A stretch of DNA of 64,000 nt from Escherichia coli (GTDB lineage Bacteria > Pseudomonadota > Gammaproteobacteria > Enterobacterales > Enterobacteriaceae). The position numbers and the translations under genes are program-made. Where the stretch lies: assembly GCF_024700885.2 (NCBI RefSeq), contig NZ_CP117016.1; one strand, written 5' to 3'. The notes below the pieces were generated by a model. The model ran no database searches. It was given only the letters and a program-made list of their open reading frames with translations, and was not told the origin of the DNA. Shown piece after piece: positions 3,054-40,462 of this stretch (the first letter of the stretch is position 1; each line of letters starts with the position of its first letter).

Positions 3054-4339
3054 TTCGCTGTTTCCTCACTCACAATTCGGTTCACCAGGCGGCCCACGCC
3101 TTCTACTTCCACTACTACTTCATCGCCAGGCACCACGTCAGATAAGCCTTTTGGTGTGCCGGTGGCGATCATGTCGCCCGGATTCAGGGTCATAAATTCG
3201 CTTAAGTAGGCGATCAGGAAGGGCACGCTGAAGATCAGATCGGCGGTGGTGCCTTTCTGGCGTAACTCGCCGTTGACGAAGGTGCGAAGGGTCAGATTAT
3301 GCGGGTCCGGGATCGCCTCTTTCGGCACGATGGTTGAAAGCATCGGCGTCAGTCCGTCGCGGCTTTTTACCCGCAGGTTAGGGCGGTAGTAGTTTTCCAG
3401 ATAGTCGCGAATGGCGTAGTCGTTACACACGGTGTAGCCCGCGACATAATCCATAGCATCGGCTTCGCTGACGTTACGCGCCTGCTTGCCAATCACCACC
3501 ACCAGCTCCGCTTCGTAGTGCATATACTCAATATTGTTCGGGCGCACGGAGGTCTGGTTATCGCCAGTGAGGGTATTCGGCGCTTTCAGGAACACCAGCG
3601 GTTCTTCCGGTGGCTTAAATTCCAGTTCGCTGGCGTGGTCGGCGTAGTTCAGGCCGAGGGCAAACAGCGTGCCGTGCGGGTGTGGCTGCGTTGGGAAGCT
3701 CTTGCGCGTGGTCACTTCACGTTCGTCCACTACCGGATTTTCCAGTGGCGGGAAACCTTCAGCGAGAACACGAACGCGATCGCCTGGCTGTATTTCCACG
3801 CGCGCCTGTGGCGTGCCGAGCAGAATGGCATCGCCTGGATTCAGCGTGGCAAATTCGCTCAGAGCGCTCAGCAACTGCGCGGCATTACGTTGTAAATCGG
3901 CGGTGTTCCAGTGATCGGCAGGACGTCCGTTGATCTCGGTATAGATGGTCAGATTATCGACATTGCTGAGAGCCACGGTTTCGCCAATGGGGCAGAATCC
4001 ATCACGACATTTTGCTTTGATTGCCGGGCGGTAAAAGCTCTCTTCCGGCAGGCTGACGTCGTTAGCCAGCGCATATCCGGCGATGTACTCTGCTGCATCT
4101 TCTTCACGTACTTTCGTCGCCGTTTTTCCCACAATCAGCGCAACAGTCGCACCGCTCAGTACCTTTTCACCCTGTGGAAAGGGAATCGGTTCACCGCAAC
4201 CAATCACCGTATTGCGCGGTTTAATAAACCAGACCGCAGTTTTAGGCGGGGCTTTGTAGGGGGATTGCTGGAACGCTTCCTGCCATGCATCAAGTTGGCT
4301 GCGATGGTTCAACGCTACGGCGAAGATAGTGCCTTTCAT
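3050..4339 (-). CDS. hpaG: bifunctional OPET decarboxylase / HHDD isomerase (FAH-family tandem domains)
   Basis: ORF 3050..4345; ATG at 4339 is preceded by GAGGAG and gives 429 aa (MKGTIFAV...); two FAH-like repeats are visible in the translation. Confidence 0.88.
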   Translation of the reverse strand: MKGTIFAVALNHRSQLDAWQEAFQQSPYKAPPKTAVWFIKPRNTVIGCGEPIPFPQGEKVLSGATVALIVGKTATKVREEDAAEYIAGYALANDVSLPEESFYRPAIKAKCRDGFCPIGETVALSNVDNLTIYTEINGRPADHWNTADLQRNAAQLLSALSEFATLNPGDAILLGTPQARVEIQPGDRVRVLAEGFPPLENPVVDEREVTTRKSFPTQPHPHGTLFALGLNYADHASELEFKPPEEPLVFLKAPNTLTGDNQTSVRPNNIEYMHYEAELVVVIGKQARNVSEADAMDYVAGYTVCNDYAIRDYLENYYRPNLRVKSRDGLTPMLSTIVPKEAIPDPHNLTLRTFVNGELRQKGTTADLIFSVPFLIAYLSEFMTLNPGDMIATGTPKGLSDVVPGDEVVVEVEGVGRLVNRIVSEETAK

Positions 4340-37090: not shown

Positions 37091-37843
37091 ATGAACCTTG
37101 AAGCCTTACCAAAATATTACTCCCCAAAATCTCCAAAATTGAGCGATGACGCACCGGCGACAGGCTCAGGTGGTTTAACGATTACGGATGTGATGGCTGC
37201 GCAGGGGATGGTGCAGTCGAAAGCACCGCTTGGGTTTGCCTTATTCCTGGCAAAAGTTGGTGTTCAGGATCCTCAATTTGCGATTGAAGGTCTGCTCAAT
37301 TACGCGATGGCACTGGATAACCCGACATTGAACAAATTGAGTGAAGAAACCCGGTTACAGATCATCCCTTACCTTGTGAATTTTGCCTTTGCTGATTATT
37401 CCAGGTCTGCGGCAAGTAAGGCTCGCTGTGAGCATTGTGCTGGTACTGGATTTCATAATGTATTGCGCGAAGTGGTGAAACACTCCAGAAGCGGGGAATC
37501 TGTTATCAAGGAAGAGTGGGTGAAGGAACTATGTCAGCATTGTCATGGTAAGGGAGAAGTCAGCACAGCGTGCAGAGGGTGTAAGGGTAAAGGTATTGTC
37601 CTGGATGAAAAAAGGACCCGGCTTCATGGCACGCCTGTTTATAAGATTTGTGGGCGTTGCAATGGAAACCGGTTTAGCCGTTTACCAACCACACTGGCGC
37701 GGCATCATGTCCAGAAGCTGGTACCAGACCTGACGGATTATCAGTGGTACAAAGGATATGCAGATGTCATTGATAAACTGGTTACAAAGTGCTGGCAGGA
37801 AGAAGCATATGCAGAGATACAATTGAGAAATGTGACAAGATAA
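37091..37843 (+). CDS. putative late-gene antiterminator (Q-like, zinc-finger rich)
   Basis: 250-aa ORF from ATG 37091 (GGAG RBS); several CxxC pairs (CEHCAGTG, CQHCHGKG, CRGCKGKG, CGRCNG); sits immediately upstream of the tR'-like terminator and lysis cassette. Confidence 0.45.
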   Translation: MNLEALPKYYSPKSPKLSDDAPATGSGGLTITDVMAAQGMVQSKAPLGFALFLAKVGVQDPQFAIEGLLNYAMALDNPTLNKLSEETRLQIIPYLVNFAFADYSRSAASKARCEHCAGTGFHNVLREVVKHSRSGESVIKEEWVKELCQHCHGKGEVSTACRGCKGKGIVLDEKRTRLHGTPVYKICGRCNGNRFSRLPTTLARHHVQKLVPDLTDYQWYKGYADVIDKLVTKCWQEEAYAEIQLRNVTR

Positions 37844-37950
37844 ATGGTTTTCGCCGAAGATGACGACATGATGCTTGCATTTTTCAAAAAATATGGATAA
37901 GATTTTCCCAACGATGGGCTTTGTATGTCTACCGTTGATAAGATTTAAGA

Positions 37951-37975
37951 ACCCGCCACTGAGCGGGTTTTTTTG
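37951..37975 (+). terminator. rho-independent terminator (tR'-like), copy 1
   Basis: acccgc-cactga-gcgggt hairpin followed by T7. Confidence 0.7.
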
Positions 37976-38132
37976 TGCCAGATGTCTCATGAAACTATGA
38001 AATGGATTGGTGCGTTAAACATTTTTTCTTATTATCTTTTAGATTTTGGAGAGATGGTTAACGTCTGTATTCCAGAAACTCGATGATTATTTAATAAATT
38101 AGTTTCAATGATGCTTCTAGGTTATGACTGTA

Positions 38133-38549
38133 ATGAAAAAGGTATTAATAGCAGCGATAGGTTTTTGTTTAGTTGGTTGTGCAGGTATGAAATTACCTGA
38201 GTATTCGCAAGTTAAAGCAAGTCCGTATTATACAGATTGCCGTGCGTTTGCCATGGATGTTTATAAAAATGATGGATACAGCAAAATTGCGAAAACTACT
38301 ATCCTTAGCATGGATGATGTGAAGGCTAGATATATTGTGACAGGGTGTGTAGTTGCTATGGGGAAAAACACTGTAGAGGAAATCAAAGCTGATCTCTCTG
38401 CTAAAGGGAGTTCTTTTGGGCTTATCAGTGGAGCTTGTTCTAGTGCGGCATGTCGGGTTGATGTAGAGCAGCAAATGAACGCTTATGTACTTGGTAGTTA
38501 TTATGCTGCAAATAAAAAATTCCCGGATAAAATGAAAGCAGAGTTTTAA
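38133..38549 (+). CDS. AT-rich lipoprotein (moron)
   Basis: Signal peptide with lipobox MKKVLIAAIGFCLVGC; ~138 aa from ATG 38133 (ORF from 38124); markedly AT-rich; bracketed by two copies of the same terminator. Confidence 0.7.
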   Translation: MKKVLIAAIGFCLVGCAGMKLPEYSQVKASPYYTDCRAFAMDVYKNDGYSKIAKTTILSMDDVKARYIVTGCVVAMGKNTVEEIKADLSAKGSSFGLISGACSSAACRVDVEQQMNAYVLGSYYAANKKFPDKMKAEF

Positions 38550-38627
38550 GTAAACCTTGTTTTCGATTATATGTCGAAGATAAATGTTAGTAACGGCATA
38601 ATAAGTAAATATATAGCTGTGATAGCA

Positions 38628-38650
38628 ACCCGCCACTGAGCGGGTTTTTT
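38628..38650 (+). terminator. rho-independent terminator, copy 2 (duplicate of 37951-37975)
   Basis: Identical acccgccactgagcgggt hairpin followed by T6. Confidence 0.7.
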
Positions 38651-38748
38651 GTACCTGTAAACTTGGTGCAGTACAGTAAACACGCTGGTGGTCGTGAATA
38701 CTGACTTTTTATCTTGCTGGCTTTTTAGACAAGAGTTATTGGTATGTC

Positions 38749-38976
38749 ATGTTAACCAGAAGGGAAAAAGACATGCTAAAACAGCAAGATATGACAGAAA
38801 CCGCCGCCGCAGTCCTTCATTTCTTACCTGCTGACAAGTGGGTAACGCCACGCATGATGACGAGAACTACCGGAGTAAGCGAAGCCCGGTGCCAGTTAAT
38901 ACTGACTCAGTTAGTTCTGGCGGGTCTGGCGAAGGATAACGGCGGGTACGGGAATAAATTCAGACGCTGCCAGTAA
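38749..38976 (+). CDS. small putative DNA-binding protein
   Basis: 75-aa ORF (MLTRREKDMLKQQDMTETAAAVLHFLPADKWVTPRMMTRTTGVSEARCQLILTQLVLAGLAKDNGG...) with a winged-helix-like segment. Confidence 0.4.
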   Translation: MLTRREKDMLKQQDMTETAAAVLHFLPADKWVTPRMMTRTTGVSEARCQLILTQLVLAGLAKDNGGYGNKFRRCQ

Positions 38977-39126
38977 TGGCGGTTTCCTGCTGTGAAAATG
39001 GGCGGCTGGTGGGTGTTGGTAGCACCTGCCAGCCATTCGCTCATGCTTACTGGTCACAAGCGAACCATGGCCCACTGCTTTAGCGCAAAAGCAGAGTGAG
39101 CCTACCAGAGTTACGCTTACTGATTC

Positions 39127-40179
39127 ATGAAAAATACTGTAAAAATAAACAGTGTTGATTTAATCAACGCTGATTGCCTGCATTTTATTCAGTCCCTGCC
39201 TGATGATTCCATTGACCTGATTGTTACCGATCCGCCGTACTTCAAGGTGAAACCCAACGGCTGGGACAATCAGTGGAAAGGGGACGAAGATTACCTTAAG
39301 TGGCTGGACCACTGTCTGGCCCAGTTCTGGCGGGTGTTAAAACCTGCCGGAAGCCTTTACCTGTTCTGTGGGCATCGCCTGGCATCTGATATTGAGATCA
39401 TGATGCGTGAACGTTTCAACGTGCTTAACCATATCATCTGGGCGAAGCCGTCCGGACGTTGGAATGGGTGTAATAAAGAAAGTCTGCGCGCATATTTTCC
39501 TGCCACAGAGCGCGTTCTGTTTGCTGAACATTACCAGGGGCCATATCGCGGCAAAAGTGACGGCTATGCAGCAAAAGAAAGGGAACTCAAACAGCACATA
39601 ATGGCACCGCTGATATCGTATTTCAGGGATGCTCGTGCCGAACTGGGTATAACGGCAAAACAAATTGCCGAAGCCACAGGTAAGAAAAATATGGTTTCCC
39701 ACTGGTTTGGTGCCAGTCAGTGGCAGTTGCCGAATGAGGCTGACTATCGGAAGTTACAGGCACTGTTTTCCCGTATAGCGGCAGAGAAGTTTCAGGAACA
39801 ACAACTGGAACAACCACACCACCAGCTGGTGGCATCTTATGATTCACTGAATCGTAAATATTCTGAATTGCTGGATGAGTTTAAATCTCTCCGGCGCTAT
39901 TTCTCCGTATCAGTCTCCGTGCCTTATACCGATGTCTGGATGCATAAACCCGTTCAGTTCTACCCGGGGAAACATCCGTGTGAGAAACCGGCGGATATGC
40001 TCAGGCAAATAATCAATGCCAGTAGTCGACCTGGTGATCTGGTTGCTGATTTTTTTATGGGATCCGGTTCCACAATAAAAGCAGCAATGGCGCTGGGGCG
40101 TCGGGCCTTAGGTGTTGAGCTTGAGTCAGAGCGGTTTAACCAGACAGTGAAAGAGATAAACGAGCTGGTGGGGAAATAA
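39127..40179 (+). CDS. orphan DNA methyltransferase (N6-adenine or N4-cytosine class, DPPY motif)
   Basis: 350-aa ORF; catalytic motif IVTDPPYF near the N-terminus and a C-terminal SAM-binding region (FFMGSGST); no adjacent restriction endonuclease gene. Confidence 0.85.
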
Positions 40180-40246
40180 TCTGGTGGCCACGTCAGGTGG
40201 CCTTTTTATTTCCATTACACAGCACCCGCATCTGCGAGGTGGGGTT

Positions 40247-40462
40247 ATGAAATCCATGGATAAGTTAACAACGGGTGTCGCCTATGGCACCTCAGCAGGT
40301 AGTGCCGGGTACTGGTTTTTACAGTTGCTCGATAAAGTCACGCCCTCACAGTGGGCGGCAATAGGTGTGCTGGGTAGTCTGGTATTTGGCCTGCTGACGT
40401 ACCTGACAAACCTTTATTTCAAGATTAAAGAAGATAAGCGCAAGGCTGCGAGAGGTGAATAA
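40247..40462 (+). CDS. class II holin (phage 21 S-type pinholin)
   Basis: 71-aa [32 protein letters not shown]... with dual-start motif M-K-S-M and two TM segments; near-identical to S21 as I recall it. Confidence 0.8.

What the first reader, a model, noticed from the sequence alone, without database searches (positions are those of the whole stretch)
38749..40179. Orphan DPPY-motif DNA methyltransferase and a small winged-helix protein inserted between the Q-like gene and the lysis cassette
A 350-aa MTase with the IVTDPPYF catalytic motif has no adjacent restriction enzyme gene, and is preceded by a 75-aa putative DNA-binding protein. Orphan phage MTases can protect against host restriction systems or alter host gene expression, and the target specificity is unknown.
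Basis: partly seen in the sequence, partly recalled or inferred. Interest (0 to 1): 0.35.

Follow-up and report, generated by a model that had tools for sequence, protein, structure and literature searches.

The report
Late-operon non-specific adenine methylase cassette
The gene is an ordinary, very common prophage copy of the already characterised M.EcoGI/M.EcoGII family of DNA methylases that mark every adenine, but it is preceded by a conserved small winged-helix gene and by a folded RNA leader that I did not find described anywhere I could search and that probably restrains production of this toxic enzyme.

Summary
Both ORFs are real. The 350-aa methyltransferase (39127-40179) has DPPY and FxGxG motifs in beta-class order and no restriction gene nearby. 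The small ORF more likely starts at 38773 (67 aa) and is predicted to be a winged helix.

The specificity is not unknown. The protein is 100% identical to the phage cdtI methylase, 81-82% identical over its full length to M.EcoGII/M.EcoGI of E. coli O104:H4, and about 88% to a reconstructed ancestor shown to be non-specific. Those enzymes methylate any adenine and are silent in lysogens. About 49% of complete E. coli genomes carry the gene.

It lies behind terminators in the Q-dependent late operon. The likely role is bulk m6A marking of phage DNA before packaging, to evade restriction.

The 150-nt spacer between the two ORFs is a structured RNA of about 135 nt (38992-39129). It has strong covariation, no Rfam match, about 1:1 coupling to the methylase gene in E. 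coli, and homologues in Hafnia, Morganella, Serratia, N15-like, Vibrio and Aeromonas phages. The winged-helix gene is a similarly old companion. Their functions are inferred, not shown.

The parts
37091..37843 (+). Q-type late antiterminator gene. It is context for the cassette: it drives read-through of the terminators that precede the cassette.
   Evidence: Pfam PF03589 Antiterm, E 1e-53. Annotated as antitermination protein Q in phages Ayreon and mEp460.
37950..37976 (+). First intrinsic terminator after Q (tR'-like): AACCCGCCACTGAGCGGGTTTTTTT.
   Evidence: Sequence read. Repeat family D1. Annotated as a terminator in Ayreon. A near-identical hairpin is annotated after the 'putative late promoter' in N15 and phiKO2.
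38124..38549 (+). 141-aa lipobox ORF (moron) in an AT-rich insert. It is not part of the cassette proper.
   Evidence: ORF. phrog_4748, unknown function. GC 33-41%. Absent from loci L003, L004 and L250.
38627..38653 (+). Second, identical copy of the terminator hairpin, directly upstream of the cassette.
   Evidence: Terminator scan. 24/24 identical repeat. Annotated as a terminator in Ayreon.
38773..38976 (+). Small winged-helix protein gene, 67 aa. The open frame extends back to ATG 38749, giving 75 aa.
   Evidence: ORF. phrog_331, E 3e-26, unknown function. Family alignment with invariant MxxQxDMT..A and CQLILT. AF2 pLDDT 86 with winged-helix topology. Foldseek hits to Zalpha, TrmBL2, IclR and MarR winged helices. 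Found directly upstream of the leader in 96 loci. Distant homologues in N15-like and Vibrio phages: hhalign probability 94.6%, E 7e-8.
38992..39129 (+). Conserved structured RNA leader. P1 is 38999-39003 paired with 39070-39074 and closes a three-way junction. P2 is the hairpin 39005-39033. P3 is the hairpin 39036-39064. P4 is the hairpin 39075-39094. P5 is tentative: 39095-39101 paired with 39115-39121, next to the start codon at 39127.
   Evidence: More conserved than the flanking genes. Covariance model hit of 124.5 bits, E 3.5e-35, the only hit in the 64-kb window. On 51 distinct sequences, 88.5% of cells pair against 27-47% in slid controls, and 29 of 31 pairs show compensatory change. 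The structure is also supported on a MAFFT-only alignment. MFE -57 kcal/mol, z -3.78, reproducing P1-P5. No Rfam 15 match. P5 has weak support: mean duplex z of -1.2.
39127..40179 (+). Beta-class N6-adenine DNA methyltransferase of the M.EcoGI/M.EcoGII family, 350 aa.
   Evidence: PF01555, E 2e-42. phrog_67, E 2e-102. PADLOC MTase_II, E 3e-152. 100% identical to the cdtI phage methylase. 81% to printed M.EcoGII. 82% to the O104:H4 homologue. About 88% to Anc291.
40186..40209 (+). Intrinsic terminator between the methylase and the holin gene.
   Evidence: Terminator scan: GGCCACGTCAGGTGGCC followed by TTTTTATTT. Annotated as a terminator in Ayreon.
40247..40462 (+). S21-type holin with a dual start (MKSMDK). 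It is the first gene of the lysis cassette and marks the downstream boundary of the cassette.
   Evidence: PF04971, E 4e-35. Annotated as holin in the Ayreon and mEp460 records and as essD (phage lysis protein) in the E. coli RefSeq records.

Best explanation
The region holds a three-part late-operon cassette of a lambdoid prophage: a small winged-helix gene, a structured RNA leader and a methyltransferase.

The methyltransferase belongs to the M.EcoGI/M.EcoGII family of beta-class enzymes. These transfer a methyl group from SAM to N6 of adenine with essentially no sequence requirement. In the lysogen the gene is not transcribed, because it lies downstream of the tR'-type terminators. After induction, Q-modified RNA polymerase reads through them. 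The enzyme is then made together with the lysis and morphogenesis proteins and methylates replicating phage DNA at many adenines before packaging. Progeny DNA would then resist most type I, II and III restriction enzymes in the next host.

The enzyme is harmful when expressed constitutively, so a second layer of control is likely. The ~135-nt leader folds into a three-way junction plus hairpins. Its last, tentative helix covers the weak ribosome-binding region, which probably limits or times translation of the methylase. The conserved winged-helix protein is a candidate trans-acting partner.

What is shown and what is inferred:
- Shown here: family membership, gene order, terminators, and the conservation and covariation of the leader.
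- Taken from published work on close relatives: non-specific activity, silence in lysogens and toxicity.
- Inferred: late expression in this phage, the anti-restriction role, the regulatory role of the leader, and any role of the winged-helix protein.
For: Family membership: PF01555 at E 2e-42, with DPPY at residues 35-38 and FxGxG at 310-314 in beta-class order. Identity is 281/349 to M.EcoGII as printed in PMC11551740 Table S1. Identity is 284/348, without gaps, to the O104:H4 FDAARGOS_348 homologue, which is itself 94% identical to printed M.EcoGII. Identity is about 88% to Anc291, an ancestor shown to methylate DNA and RNA without a motif. The TRD region 160-237 is 79.5% identical.

Published properties of relatives: they methylate any adenine, are unexpressed in the native strain, slow growth when over-expressed, and were proposed to act against restriction (PMC5778455). 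Homologues gave no methylation signal, or were RT-PCR negative, in lysogens.

Context: the order is Q, terminator, (moron), terminator, wH gene, leader, methylase, terminator, holin-lysozyme-Rz. The same order occurs behind different antiterminators and ahead of tRNAs, stx or different lysis genes. Viable phages (Ayreon, mEp460, cdtI, SfV) carry the same gene at 98-100% protein identity.

Leader. In complete E. coli genomes the leader occurs at 3758 places in 2635 genomes, against 3782 places in 2640 genomes for the methylase 5' end. The spacing from the AGCCUA motif to the AUG is fixed at 22 nt in the enterobacterial loci. No usable Shine-Dalgarno sequence precedes the AUG. P5 pairs the region just upstream of the AUG. 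In Vibrio and Aeromonas relatives a Mu Com-type zinc-ribbon ORF sits between leader and methylase (PF10122). Mu Com is a translational activator of the mom DNA-modification gene (my own knowledge), so translational control of this methylase family has a precedent in kind.
Against: No experiment on this protein or on any phage carrying it was found, so non-specific activity is extrapolated from relatives at 81-82% identity. The M.EcoGII sequence used is a machine-read PDF table with visible reading errors. A site-specific enzyme, M.PflMI, exists in the wider cluster, though at only 27% identity to M.EcoGII.

My AlphaFold2 model of the methylase was poor (pLDDT 66 from an 8-sequence alignment), so the TRD fold was not confirmed structurally. 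The late promoter was not located with confidence: the best candidate, TTGCAT-17-TAAGAT at 37875-37903, matches only 7 of 12 consensus positions and was not called by the scan. No data here show that virion DNA is hypermethylated. Adenine-methylated DNA could also expose the phage to methyl-dependent restriction.

The leader's function is untested. P5 support is weak (mean z -1.2). A 5'-flank/start-codon helix seen in the window's MFE fold is not conserved. Some loci have the leader without a detectable wH gene within 1.2 kb, and one clade has a wH gene but a different leader. A specific wH-leader partnership is therefore not required by the data.
Confidence: 0.7

Rival explanations
1. The enzyme is a sequence-specific orphan methylase with its own unknown motif.
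For: Most PF01555 enzymes are site-specific. The nearest solved structures (RsrI, MboIIA, CcrM, PvuII) are site-specific. The wider cluster contains the site-specific M.PflMI. 18-20% of residues differ from M.EcoGI/GII, including about 20% of the TRD.
Against: Full-length, gap-free identity of 81-82% to two non-specific enzymes, and about 88% to a non-specific reconstructed ancestor. M.PflMI is only 27% identical to M.EcoGII and lacks the charged linker, whereas the linker regions align here. All six ancestors tested between M.EcoGII and the M.PflMI node methylated DNA and RNA in the bulk assays. Absence of a sequence motif was tested only for M.EcoGII, Anc291 and SUPREM.
Confidence: 0.07
2. 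The methylase acts in the lysogen as an epigenetic regulator or 'vaccine' that changes host gene expression or protects the chromosome.
For: Other prophage methylases do this, for example M.EcoGIII, which is reported to affect about 1,900 genes. A weak promoter-like site lies inside the small ORF at 38831-38858.
Against: The gene lies behind two strong terminators and in front of the holin in the late operon. Promoter-like sites in the region are no more frequent than in shuffled sequence: 4 found against 5.0 expected. M.EcoGI/GII homologues leave no signal in lysogen methylomes and M.EcoMV is RT-PCR negative. Constitutive expression slows growth.
Confidence: 0.05
3. The conserved spacer is not a functional RNA. 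It would be a DNA-level feature, such as a recombination linker between modules or a protein-binding operator, or simply recently shared sequence.
For: Lambdoid phages exchange modules at conserved junction sequences (established knowledge). Several blocks (AATGGGCG, GGCCCA, GAGCCTA) are invariant, as an operator would be. The winged-helix protein could bind DNA there.
Against: The helices keep pairing while their sequences change. 29 of 31 pairs show double changes, with up to 5 standard pair types at one pair. Pairing is 88.5% against 27-47% when partners are slid. The same holds on a structure-blind alignment. The element persists where the flanking genes have diverged to 50-60% protein identity. 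It always lies on the coding strand at a fixed distance from the AUG.
Confidence: 0.07
4. The small winged-helix protein is a DNA-binding transcription factor that switches the methylase or late genes on or off, like a controller protein of restriction-modification systems. It would not be an RNA-binding or protein-binding partner.
For: Most prokaryotic winged helices bind DNA. Structural neighbours include TrmBL2, IclR, MarR and IscR. Some database records name homologues 'TrmB family transcriptional regulator'. In N15 and phiKO2 the homologous gene lies upstream of the annotated late promoter, as a regulator of that promoter might. The recognition-helix residues RCQLILTQ are invariant.
Against: No operator-like inverted repeat was found in the region. 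In the lambdoid loci the gene is itself downstream of the late terminators, so it would be made only after the switch to late transcription. The best fold matches are stand-alone nucleic-acid-structure binders (Zalpha) and ribosomal-protein chains in ribosome entries (their identity as winged-helix RNA binders is my own knowledge). There is no Pfam, NCBIfam or PADLOC family.
Confidence: 0.3

Closest known systems
M.EcoGII and M.EcoGI of E. coli O104:H4 C227-11 (Murray et al. 2018, PMC5778455)
   Same: Length of 349-350 aa. Beta-class motif order with DPPY and FxGxG. 81-82% identity with no internal gaps. Prophage-borne. The same cassette (antiterminator, 65-67-aa wH gene, leader, methylase) occurs in an O104:H4 genome.
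   Different: 18-19% of residues differ, with the TRD 79.5% identical. Here the cassette is followed directly by the S21-type lysis genes, whereas in O104:H4 tRNA genes follow. An extra moron ORF lies upstream here. Activity of this allele is untested.
Annotated methylases of phages cdtI, mEp460, Ayreon, SfV (orf48), phiP27, 1720a-02 and Stx2a/Stx2c phages
   Same: cdtI is 100% identical, mEp460 99.7%, SfV 98.3%, and the others 81-85%. All occupy the same position between the antiterminator and the lysis or stx genes.
   Different: None of substance. These records carry only the generic annotation 'DNA methylase', and the small ORF is annotated 'hypothetical protein'.
Phage Mu com-mom module (own knowledge of the Mu literature)
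   Same: A toxic late DNA adenine-modification gene placed next to the lysis or late genes, with expression restrained after transcription by mRNA structure near the start codon. Vibrio and Aeromonas relatives of this methylase carry a Com-type zinc-ribbon ORF (PF10122) directly upstream.
   Different: Mom is not a SAM methyltransferase. The window has no Com ORF. The leader here is a larger multi-helix element upstream of the start. No trans-activator has been demonstrated.
Controller (C) proteins and autoregulating methylases of type II R-M systems (own knowledge)
   Same: A small nucleic-acid-binding protein encoded just upstream of a methylase, and the need to time methylase expression.
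   Different: C proteins are Xre-type HTH dimers that bind C-boxes and control a restriction gene. Here the fold is a winged helix, there is no restriction gene, and no operator repeat was seen.
Zalpha (Z-DNA/Z-RNA-binding) winged-helix domains, e.g. ADAR1 (PDB 1qbj)
   Same: Best structural match of the small protein: TM 0.84-0.87, rmsd 1.1-1.2 A over 64-65 residues, with the same size and topology.
   Different: Sequence identity is 10-18% and Foldseek E-values are only about 2e-3. By my manual alignment, the positions of ADAR1 K169, K170, N173, Y177, P192 and P193 (residue numbers from memory) are E, A, Q, T and no prolines here. Only the wing aromatic (W195, aligned to F/Y) is kept. The match may simply reflect that both are minimal stand-alone winged helices.

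Membership tests
Beta-class N6A/N4C amino-methyltransferases (Pfam PF01555) | Profile match above the curated threshold | tested here: met
   145.9 bits against a 26.7-bit cut-off, E 2e-42, covering profile positions 1-220 of 221.
Beta-class N6A/N4C amino-methyltransferases (Pfam PF01555) | Motif order: catalytic (D/N/S)PP(Y/F) at the N-terminus, central TRD, SAM-binding FxGxG at the C-terminus | tested here: met
   DPPY at residues 35-38, FMGSG at residues 310-314, with about 270 residues between them.
M.EcoGI/M.EcoGII non-specific adenine methyltransferase family | Close full-length sequence relationship to the characterised enzymes | tested here: met
   81% to printed M.EcoGII. 82% gap-free to the O104:H4 homologue, which is 94% identical to printed M.EcoGII. 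About 88% to Anc291. Caveat: the published sequences were machine-read.
M.EcoGI/M.EcoGII non-specific adenine methyltransferase family | Rossmann core split by a four-helix-bundle TRD (residues 160-237) and a long charged linker that is absent from the site-specific M.PflMI | tested here: inconclusive
   The regions align without gaps and the TRD is 79.5% identical. The AF2 secondary structure is helical over residues 145-254, but the model is poor (pLDDT 66).
M.EcoGI/M.EcoGII non-specific adenine methyltransferase family | Methylates adenine in any sequence context in dsDNA, ssDNA and RNA | not testable with these tools
   Needs expression plus SMRT/nanopore sequencing or restriction-protection assays. 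The property is published for M.EcoGII, Anc291 and SUPREM.
M.EcoGI/M.EcoGII non-specific adenine methyltransferase family | Prophage-borne and transcriptionally silent in the lysogen | tested here: inconclusive
   The prophage late-operon location behind terminators is shown. Expression state cannot be read from sequence.
Type II restriction-modification system | A cognate restriction endonuclease gene adjacent to the methylase | tested here: not met
   Neighbours are the lipobox ORF, the wH ORF and the holin. Opposite-strand ORFs are short overlaps with no family hits. Related phage records annotate none.
Winged-helix (wHTH) fold, small protein | H1-b1-H2-H3-b2-b3 topology | tested here: met
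   AF2 model with pLDDT 86 and pTM 0.73: H4-17, bridge at residue 24, H26-33, H37-49, E53-55, E63-65. All top Foldseek hits are winged helices.
Zalpha Z-DNA-binding domain family | Conserved Z-DNA contact residues on helix 3 and the wing (Lys-Lys-x-x-Asn-x-x-x-Tyr, Pro-Pro-x-Trp) | tested here: not met
   Manual alignment of RCQLILTQLV and the wing GNKFRRC to the ADAR1 motif (residue identities from memory). Only the aromatic in the wing is kept. Identity is 10-18%.
R-M controller (C) proteins | Xre-type HTH, a C-box operator and control of a restriction gene | tested here: not met
   The fold is a winged helix. There is no restriction gene, no inverted-repeat operator and no Pfam HTH_3 hit.
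Mu Com/mom-type translational control | A Com zinc-ribbon ORF directly upstream of the modification gene | tested here: not met
   There is no such ORF in the window. It is present in Vibrio and Aeromonas relatives: PF10122, E 5e-6 to 6e-12.
Mu Com/mom-type translational control | mRNA structure occluding the ribosome-binding site or start codon | tested here: inconclusive
   P5 pairs 39095-39101 with 39115-39121, 6 nt before the AUG. Across 50 sequences the duplex is only modestly better than shuffles: mean z -1.2, and 70% of sequences below -1.
Any curated RNA family (Rfam 15) | Covariance-model match at the leader | tested here: not met
   No hit with E of 1 or less at 38977-39126 in the window, nor at the homologous leaders of 9 diverse loci.

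The most novel reading that the evidence does not exclude
The ~135-nt leader (38992-39129) is an undescribed class of cis-regulatory RNA dedicated to non-specific adenine methyltransferases of temperate phages. It gates translation of a toxic enzyme, possibly in response to the conserved winged-helix protein, to the methylase itself or to a small molecule such as SAM or SAH. The logic would parallel Mu com-mom with different parts. It is present in about half of complete E. coli genomes and in Hafnia, Morganella, Serratia, N15-like, Vibrio and Aeromonas phages.
Probability: 0.4. Interest if true: 0.65.

Novelty: new member of a known kind. Interest (0 to 1): 0.42.

Why it matters
The methylase itself matters little as a discovery. 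It is an allele of a characterised family and is identical to genes already deposited for several phages. The value of identifying it is practical. The annotation can be improved from 'DNA methylase, specificity unknown' to 'M.EcoGI/GII-type non-specific adenine methyltransferase, late gene'. It also shows that a lysogen methylome would be the wrong test.

The two unannotated companions are of more interest. M.EcoGII is a widely used reagent for chromatin-accessibility and protein-DNA mapping (my own knowledge). Its biology in the phage has been left at 'silent in the lysogen, probably anti-restriction'.

A strongly covarying leader RNA is coupled about 1:1 to the gene in 2,635 of 5,426 complete E. 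coli genomes, and a winged-helix gene has travelled with the methylase across very divergent phages. Together they suggest a dedicated control circuit for a genome-wide DNA-modifying enzyme. That circuit is directly testable with reporter fusions, structure probing and binding assays. It would add a widespread RNA family to E. coli prophage annotation.

Tried and rejected
- Rfam 15 E-value scans of the window region and of nine diverse loci found nothing at the leader. The only window hits were sub-threshold terminator-like matches to Trp/Leu leaders at tR' and a sub-threshold STnc130 match on the minus strand at 38618-38754.
- Known prophage sRNAs were considered. AgvB/AsxR anti-sRNAs lie downstream of moron genes as convergent pairs. 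Pas sRNAs are unrelated in context. Both were rejected.
- Literature searches for the leader sequence string and for a methylase-associated RNA motif found nothing relevant. Searches on the phage biology of EcoGII-type enzymes also found nothing. Fang et al. 2012 could not be fetched under the id I guessed.
- RNAalifold on sequence-only alignments recovered only part of the structure, because the hairpins were out of register. I therefore built the structure by hand on a small seed and let a covariance model realign the rest.
- A helix between the 5' flank (GUGAA) and the start codon appears in the window's MFE fold. It is not conserved in relatives, so I dropped it.
- A sigma-70 late promoter could not be placed with confidence.
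- The AlphaFold2 model of the methylase from an 8-sequence alignment was too weak to use, so no fold search was run on it.
- The first related-loci scan returned only near-identical E. coli loci. Diversity came from re-querying with the phiKO2 and VHML proteins.
- PADLOC gave only generic MTase_II models and nothing for the small protein.
- The Zalpha resemblance of the small protein was considered and not adopted, because the contact residues are not conserved.
Full report
OBSERVATION. The 350-aa product has LIVTDPPYF at residues 30-38 and FFMGSGST at residues 309-316, which is the beta-class order of catalytic motif, then TRD, then SAM motif. It matches Pfam PF01555 at E 2e-42.

Its neighbours are as follows:
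- a Q antiterminator (37091-37843, PF03589);
- a 141-aa lipobox ORF;
- the small ORF;
- an S21-type holin, a lysozyme and Rz.

No restriction gene is present.

The small ORF most likely starts at ATG 38773, giving 67 aa. All homologues begin MLKQQDMTETA. Related phage records use that start. A GAAGGGA ribosome-binding site precedes it, and nothing comparable precedes 38749.

An AlphaFold2 model built from a 26-sequence alignment has pLDDT 86 and the H1-b-H2-H3-b-hairpin topology of a winged helix. Foldseek's best PDB matches are winged helices: Zalpha domains at TM 0.84-0.87, then TrmBL2, IclR, MarR and IscR. No Pfam, NCBIfam or PADLOC family covers it. PHROGs places it in phrog_331, of unknown function.

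WHAT THE METHYLASE IS. The DNA 38600-40250 is 99.9% identical to phage Ayreon, 99.5% to mEp460 and 98.9% to cdtI. It is about 90% identical to Stx2c phages over the first 92% of the query. At the protein level, the methylase is 100% identical to that of cdtI, 98% to SfV orf48 and 81-85% to those of phiP27, 1720a-02 and Stx2a/2c phages. It is 56-74% identical to those of Hafnia, Morganella, Serratia, phiKO2, PY54 and N15, and about 50% to those of Vibrio and Aeromonas phages.

The decisive comparison is with M.EcoGII.
- Murray et al. (PMC5778455) showed that M.EcoGII of E. coli O104:H4 methylates adenine in any sequence context in dsDNA, ssDNA and RNA.
- The same paper reports that M.EcoGII and its 333/349-identical sister M.EcoGI sit on prophages and are not expressed in the native strain. 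Forced expression slows growth. The authors propose that such enzymes defeat host restriction. They name phage 1720a-02 as carrying a very similar enzyme.
- The M.EcoGII sequence printed in Table S1 of PMC11551740 is 81% identical to the window protein. That table is machine-read and contains obvious reading errors.
- I therefore fetched a natural copy from an O104:H4 genome (L250). It is 94% identical to the printed M.EcoGII, as expected for M.EcoGI. It is 82% identical (284/348, no gaps) to the window protein.
- By domain, identity between the window protein and the L250 homologue is 89% for the N-terminal Rossmann half, 79.5% for the TRD (residues 160-237) and 78% for the C-terminal half.
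- The window protein is even closer, at about 88%, to the reconstructed ancestor Anc291. Anc291, like M.EcoGII and SUPREM, methylates without a discernible motif.
- The nearest site-specific enzyme in that study, M.PflMI, is only 27% identical to M.EcoGII and lacks the charged linker.

I therefore file the protein as a member of the M.EcoGI/GII family. I predict non-specific adenine methylation, with the caveat that no assay exists for this allele.

The family is very common. The first 300 nt of the gene occur at 3782 places in 2640 of 5426 complete E. coli genomes, with up to 8 copies in one genome.

WHEN IT IS MADE. About 107 nt after the Q stop codon lies an intrinsic terminator, AACCCGCCACTGAGCGGGTTTTTTT (37950-37976). 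An identical copy lies at 38627-38650. The 677 bp between the two copies are AT-rich (33-41% GC) and hold the lipobox ORF. This looks like a moron inserted at tR' with duplication of the terminator.

That ORF is absent from the diverged cassettes, where the small gene follows the antiterminator region directly. A third terminator separates the methylase from the holin (40186-40209). Promoter-like sites are no more frequent than in shuffled sequence.

The cassette is thus part of the Q-dependent late transcript. This fits published reports that M.EcoGI, M.EcoGII and their homologues leave no trace in lysogen methylomes and are RT-PCR negative.

Late expression in this phage is inferred from gene order, not shown. 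I could not place the late promoter with confidence. The best candidate at 37875-37903 matches only 7 of 12 consensus positions.

THE SPACER IS A STRUCTURED RNA. I aligned the 150 nt between the two ORFs from E. coli, Hafnia and Morganella phages. The spacer proved more conserved than either flanking gene, with apparent compensatory changes. Adding N15, phiKO2, PY54, Serratia and VHML gave the same blocks with different hairpin sequences.

The consensus reads: (U)GAAA(A/G)UGGGCG, hairpin, CCAU..C.CAUGC, hairpin, (G/A)GCCCA, hairpin, GAGCCUA.CA, an A-rich stretch, then AUG.

In window coordinates the model is:
- P1, 38999-39003 paired with 39070-39074, closing a three-way junction;
- P2, 39005-39033;
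- P3, 39036-39064;
- P4, 39075-39094;
- a tentative P5, 39095-39101 paired with 39115-39121, ending 6 nt before the AUG at 39127.

A covariance model built from an 8-sequence seed found the element in 72 of 100 sources. It was always on the coding strand, directly 5' of the methylase or of a small ORF preceding it. It occurred exactly once in the 64-kb window, at 124.5 bits and E 3.5e-35. A second model built from those hits again found one window copy.

The covariation figures are as follows.
- On the 51 distinct aligned sequences, 88.5% of cells form standard pairs, against 27-47% when partners are slid by 1-3 columns.
- 29 of 31 pairs show a change on both sides.
- The covariation score is 0.49, against 0.02-0.09 in the slid controls.
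- No shuffle out of 500 reaches any observed measure.
- That alignment is fitted to the model. On the structure-blind MAFFT seed alignment, the figures are 89.5% paired against 34-44%, and 15 pairs with double changes against 0-6.

The window sequence alone folds into P1-P5 at -57 kcal/mol, with z = -3.78. Rfam 15 has no match, either in the window or in nine diverse loci. Text searches for the sequence and for a methylase-associated motif found nothing relevant.

In complete E. coli genomes the leader occurs at 3758 places in 2635 genomes, against 3782 places in 2640 genomes for the gene's 5' end. This is essentially 1:1 coupling.

The distance from the AGCCUA block to the AUG is a constant 22 nt in the enterobacterial loci. 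The window has no usable Shine-Dalgarno sequence.

P5 would cover the only purine-rich stretch upstream of the AUG in most relatives. Its support is modest: the mean duplex z is -1.2 over 50 sequences. Several compensatory variants are visible, namely GAGCCU/AGGCUU, AGCGU/GCGCU and AGUCU/AGACU.

THE SMALL PROTEIN IS AN OLD COMPANION. An HMM of the family finds a homologue ending about 20 nt before the leader in every E. coli-, Hafnia- and Morganella-type locus, 96 loci in all. Between the window and the M.EcoGI-type loci the small protein has diverged much more (53% identity) than the methylase (82%). Even so, MLKQQDMTETA and RCQLILTQLV remain invariant.

The 75-97-aa proteins encoded upstream in N15, phiKO2, PY54 and Vibrio phages are distant homologues. 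Profile-profile comparison gives probability 94.6% and E 7e-8. In N15 and phiKO2 that gene lies upstream of the depositor-annotated late promoter and terminator, and the leader follows the terminator immediately.

The partnership with the leader is not obligatory.
- Some loci have the leader but no detectable wH gene within the 1.2 kb available.
- A Vibrio-like clade keeps a wH-like ORF but has a different conserved leader.
- In Vibrio ST2-1pr, Aeromonas PhAER-1 and related contigs, a Mu Com-type zinc-ribbon ORF (PF10122, E 5e-6 to 6e-12) sits between the leader and the methylase.

Com is the translational activator of the toxic Mu mom modification gene (my own knowledge). Its appearance here argues that post-transcriptional control of this methylase family is biologically needed.

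MECHANISM, WITH LEVELS OF SUPPORT.
(1) Shown: this is an M.EcoGI/GII-family beta-class methylase with intact motifs, in the late operon behind terminators. It has a conserved covarying leader and a conserved winged-helix neighbour.
(2) From the literature on relatives at 81-82% identity: it methylates adenines regardless of context, is silent in lysogens and is harmful when expressed constitutively.
(3) Inferred: Q-dependent late expression, bulk m6A marking of progeny DNA before packaging, and broad evasion of restriction.
(4) Hypothesis: the leader limits or times translation, most simply by occluding the initiation region through P5. It may respond to the winged-helix protein, to the methylase itself (which binds RNA) or to a metabolite.

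I put about 0.95 on family membership, about 0.8 on non-specific activity and about 0.6 on anti-restriction as the selected function. I put about 0.9 on the leader being a real structured RNA and about 0.65 on it regulating the methylase in cis. I put no more than 0.25 on a direct interaction between the wH protein and the leader.

RIVALS. Four alternatives were considered.
- A site-specific enzyme is unlikely given the identity levels and the retained linker.
- A lysogen-phase epigenetic role is contradicted by gene position and by published lysogen methylomes.
- A purely DNA-level explanation of the spacer is contradicted by the covariation.
- The small protein as an ordinary DNA-binding transcription factor remains quite possible (about 0.3).

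VERDICT. The finding as written is real but ordinary. It is an allele of a known and very common phage methylase family whose specificity, or lack of it, is known. The worthwhile residue is the uncharacterised leader RNA and the winged-helix companion. Both lie inside the flagged interval, and both are cheap to test.

Noticed in passing
window 37950-37973 and 38627-38650, flanking 38124-38549: Two identical 24-nt terminator hairpins flank a 677-bp AT-rich (33-41% GC) segment. The segment carries a 141-aa ORF with a lipobox (LVGC; phrog_4748, unknown function). It looks like a moron inserted at tR' with duplication of the terminator, and it is absent from the diverged cassettes L003, L004 and L250.
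   Followed up: partly
L094 1358-1468, L150 1062-1187, L095 ~1359-1550, L165 1038-1229: In Vibrio and Aeromonas phage relatives, a Mu Com-type zinc-ribbon ORF (PF10122) lies between the conserved leader and the methylase gene. The arrangement echoes the Mu com-mom pair.
   Followed up: partly
L152, L160, L184, L190, L200 (about 1010-1190 in each): A clade of methylase homologues lacks the leader described here. It has a different conserved upstream element instead (GCCTTGAGTACCTGAGACCCA..TGGAGAGGAAGCA..GC-rich hairpin..TATTCAAGGCTCT). In at least L152, L190 and L200 a wH-like small ORF still lies upstream. This may be a second leader class.
   Followed up: no
window 38773-38976 (protein model): The best PDB fold matches of the 67-aa protein are Z-DNA/Z-RNA-binding Zalpha domains (TM 0.84-0.87, rmsd about 1.1 A). 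The canonical Z-DNA contact residues are mostly not conserved (plus manual alignment).
   Followed up: partly
window 39120-39129, and the same site in L001, L002 and most relatives: Most relatives have a Dam site immediately before the start codon (TGATCCATG or TGATCTATG). The window has TGATTCATG and so lacks the GATC. The significance is unknown.
   Followed up: no
L005 3488-3802 (E. coli O157:H7 strain 7409): A 5'-truncated remnant of the methylase gene (annotated pseudogene) sits at the same place between the antiterminator and the lambda-type holin. This shows decay of the cassette in some prophages.
   Followed up: no
L003 5583-5832, L004 4730-4884, L250 4231-4480 and 5177-5366, L009 3943-4449: In other lambdoid prophages the cassette is followed by tRNA genes (Ile and Arg, or Ile and Lys). 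In 1720a-02 a Shiga-toxin 2 A-subunit gene follows, there next to an aminoglycoside 3'-phosphotransferase gene. In O104:H4 the sRNA STnc100 follows (132 bits). The methylase cassette is therefore the first unit of the variable 'moron' region downstream of Q.
   Followed up: no
window 40247-40262: The holin ORF has the dual-start motif MKSMDK typical of S21-type holin/antiholin pairs. Databases annotate different starts for it.
   Followed up: no
L096 1141-3013 (Aeromonas phage phiO18P): In this P2-like phage the homologous methylase gene is wedged between the holin and muramidase genes, with no leader and no gap. Linkage of the methylase to lysis genes therefore persists even where the leader is absent.
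   Followed up: no
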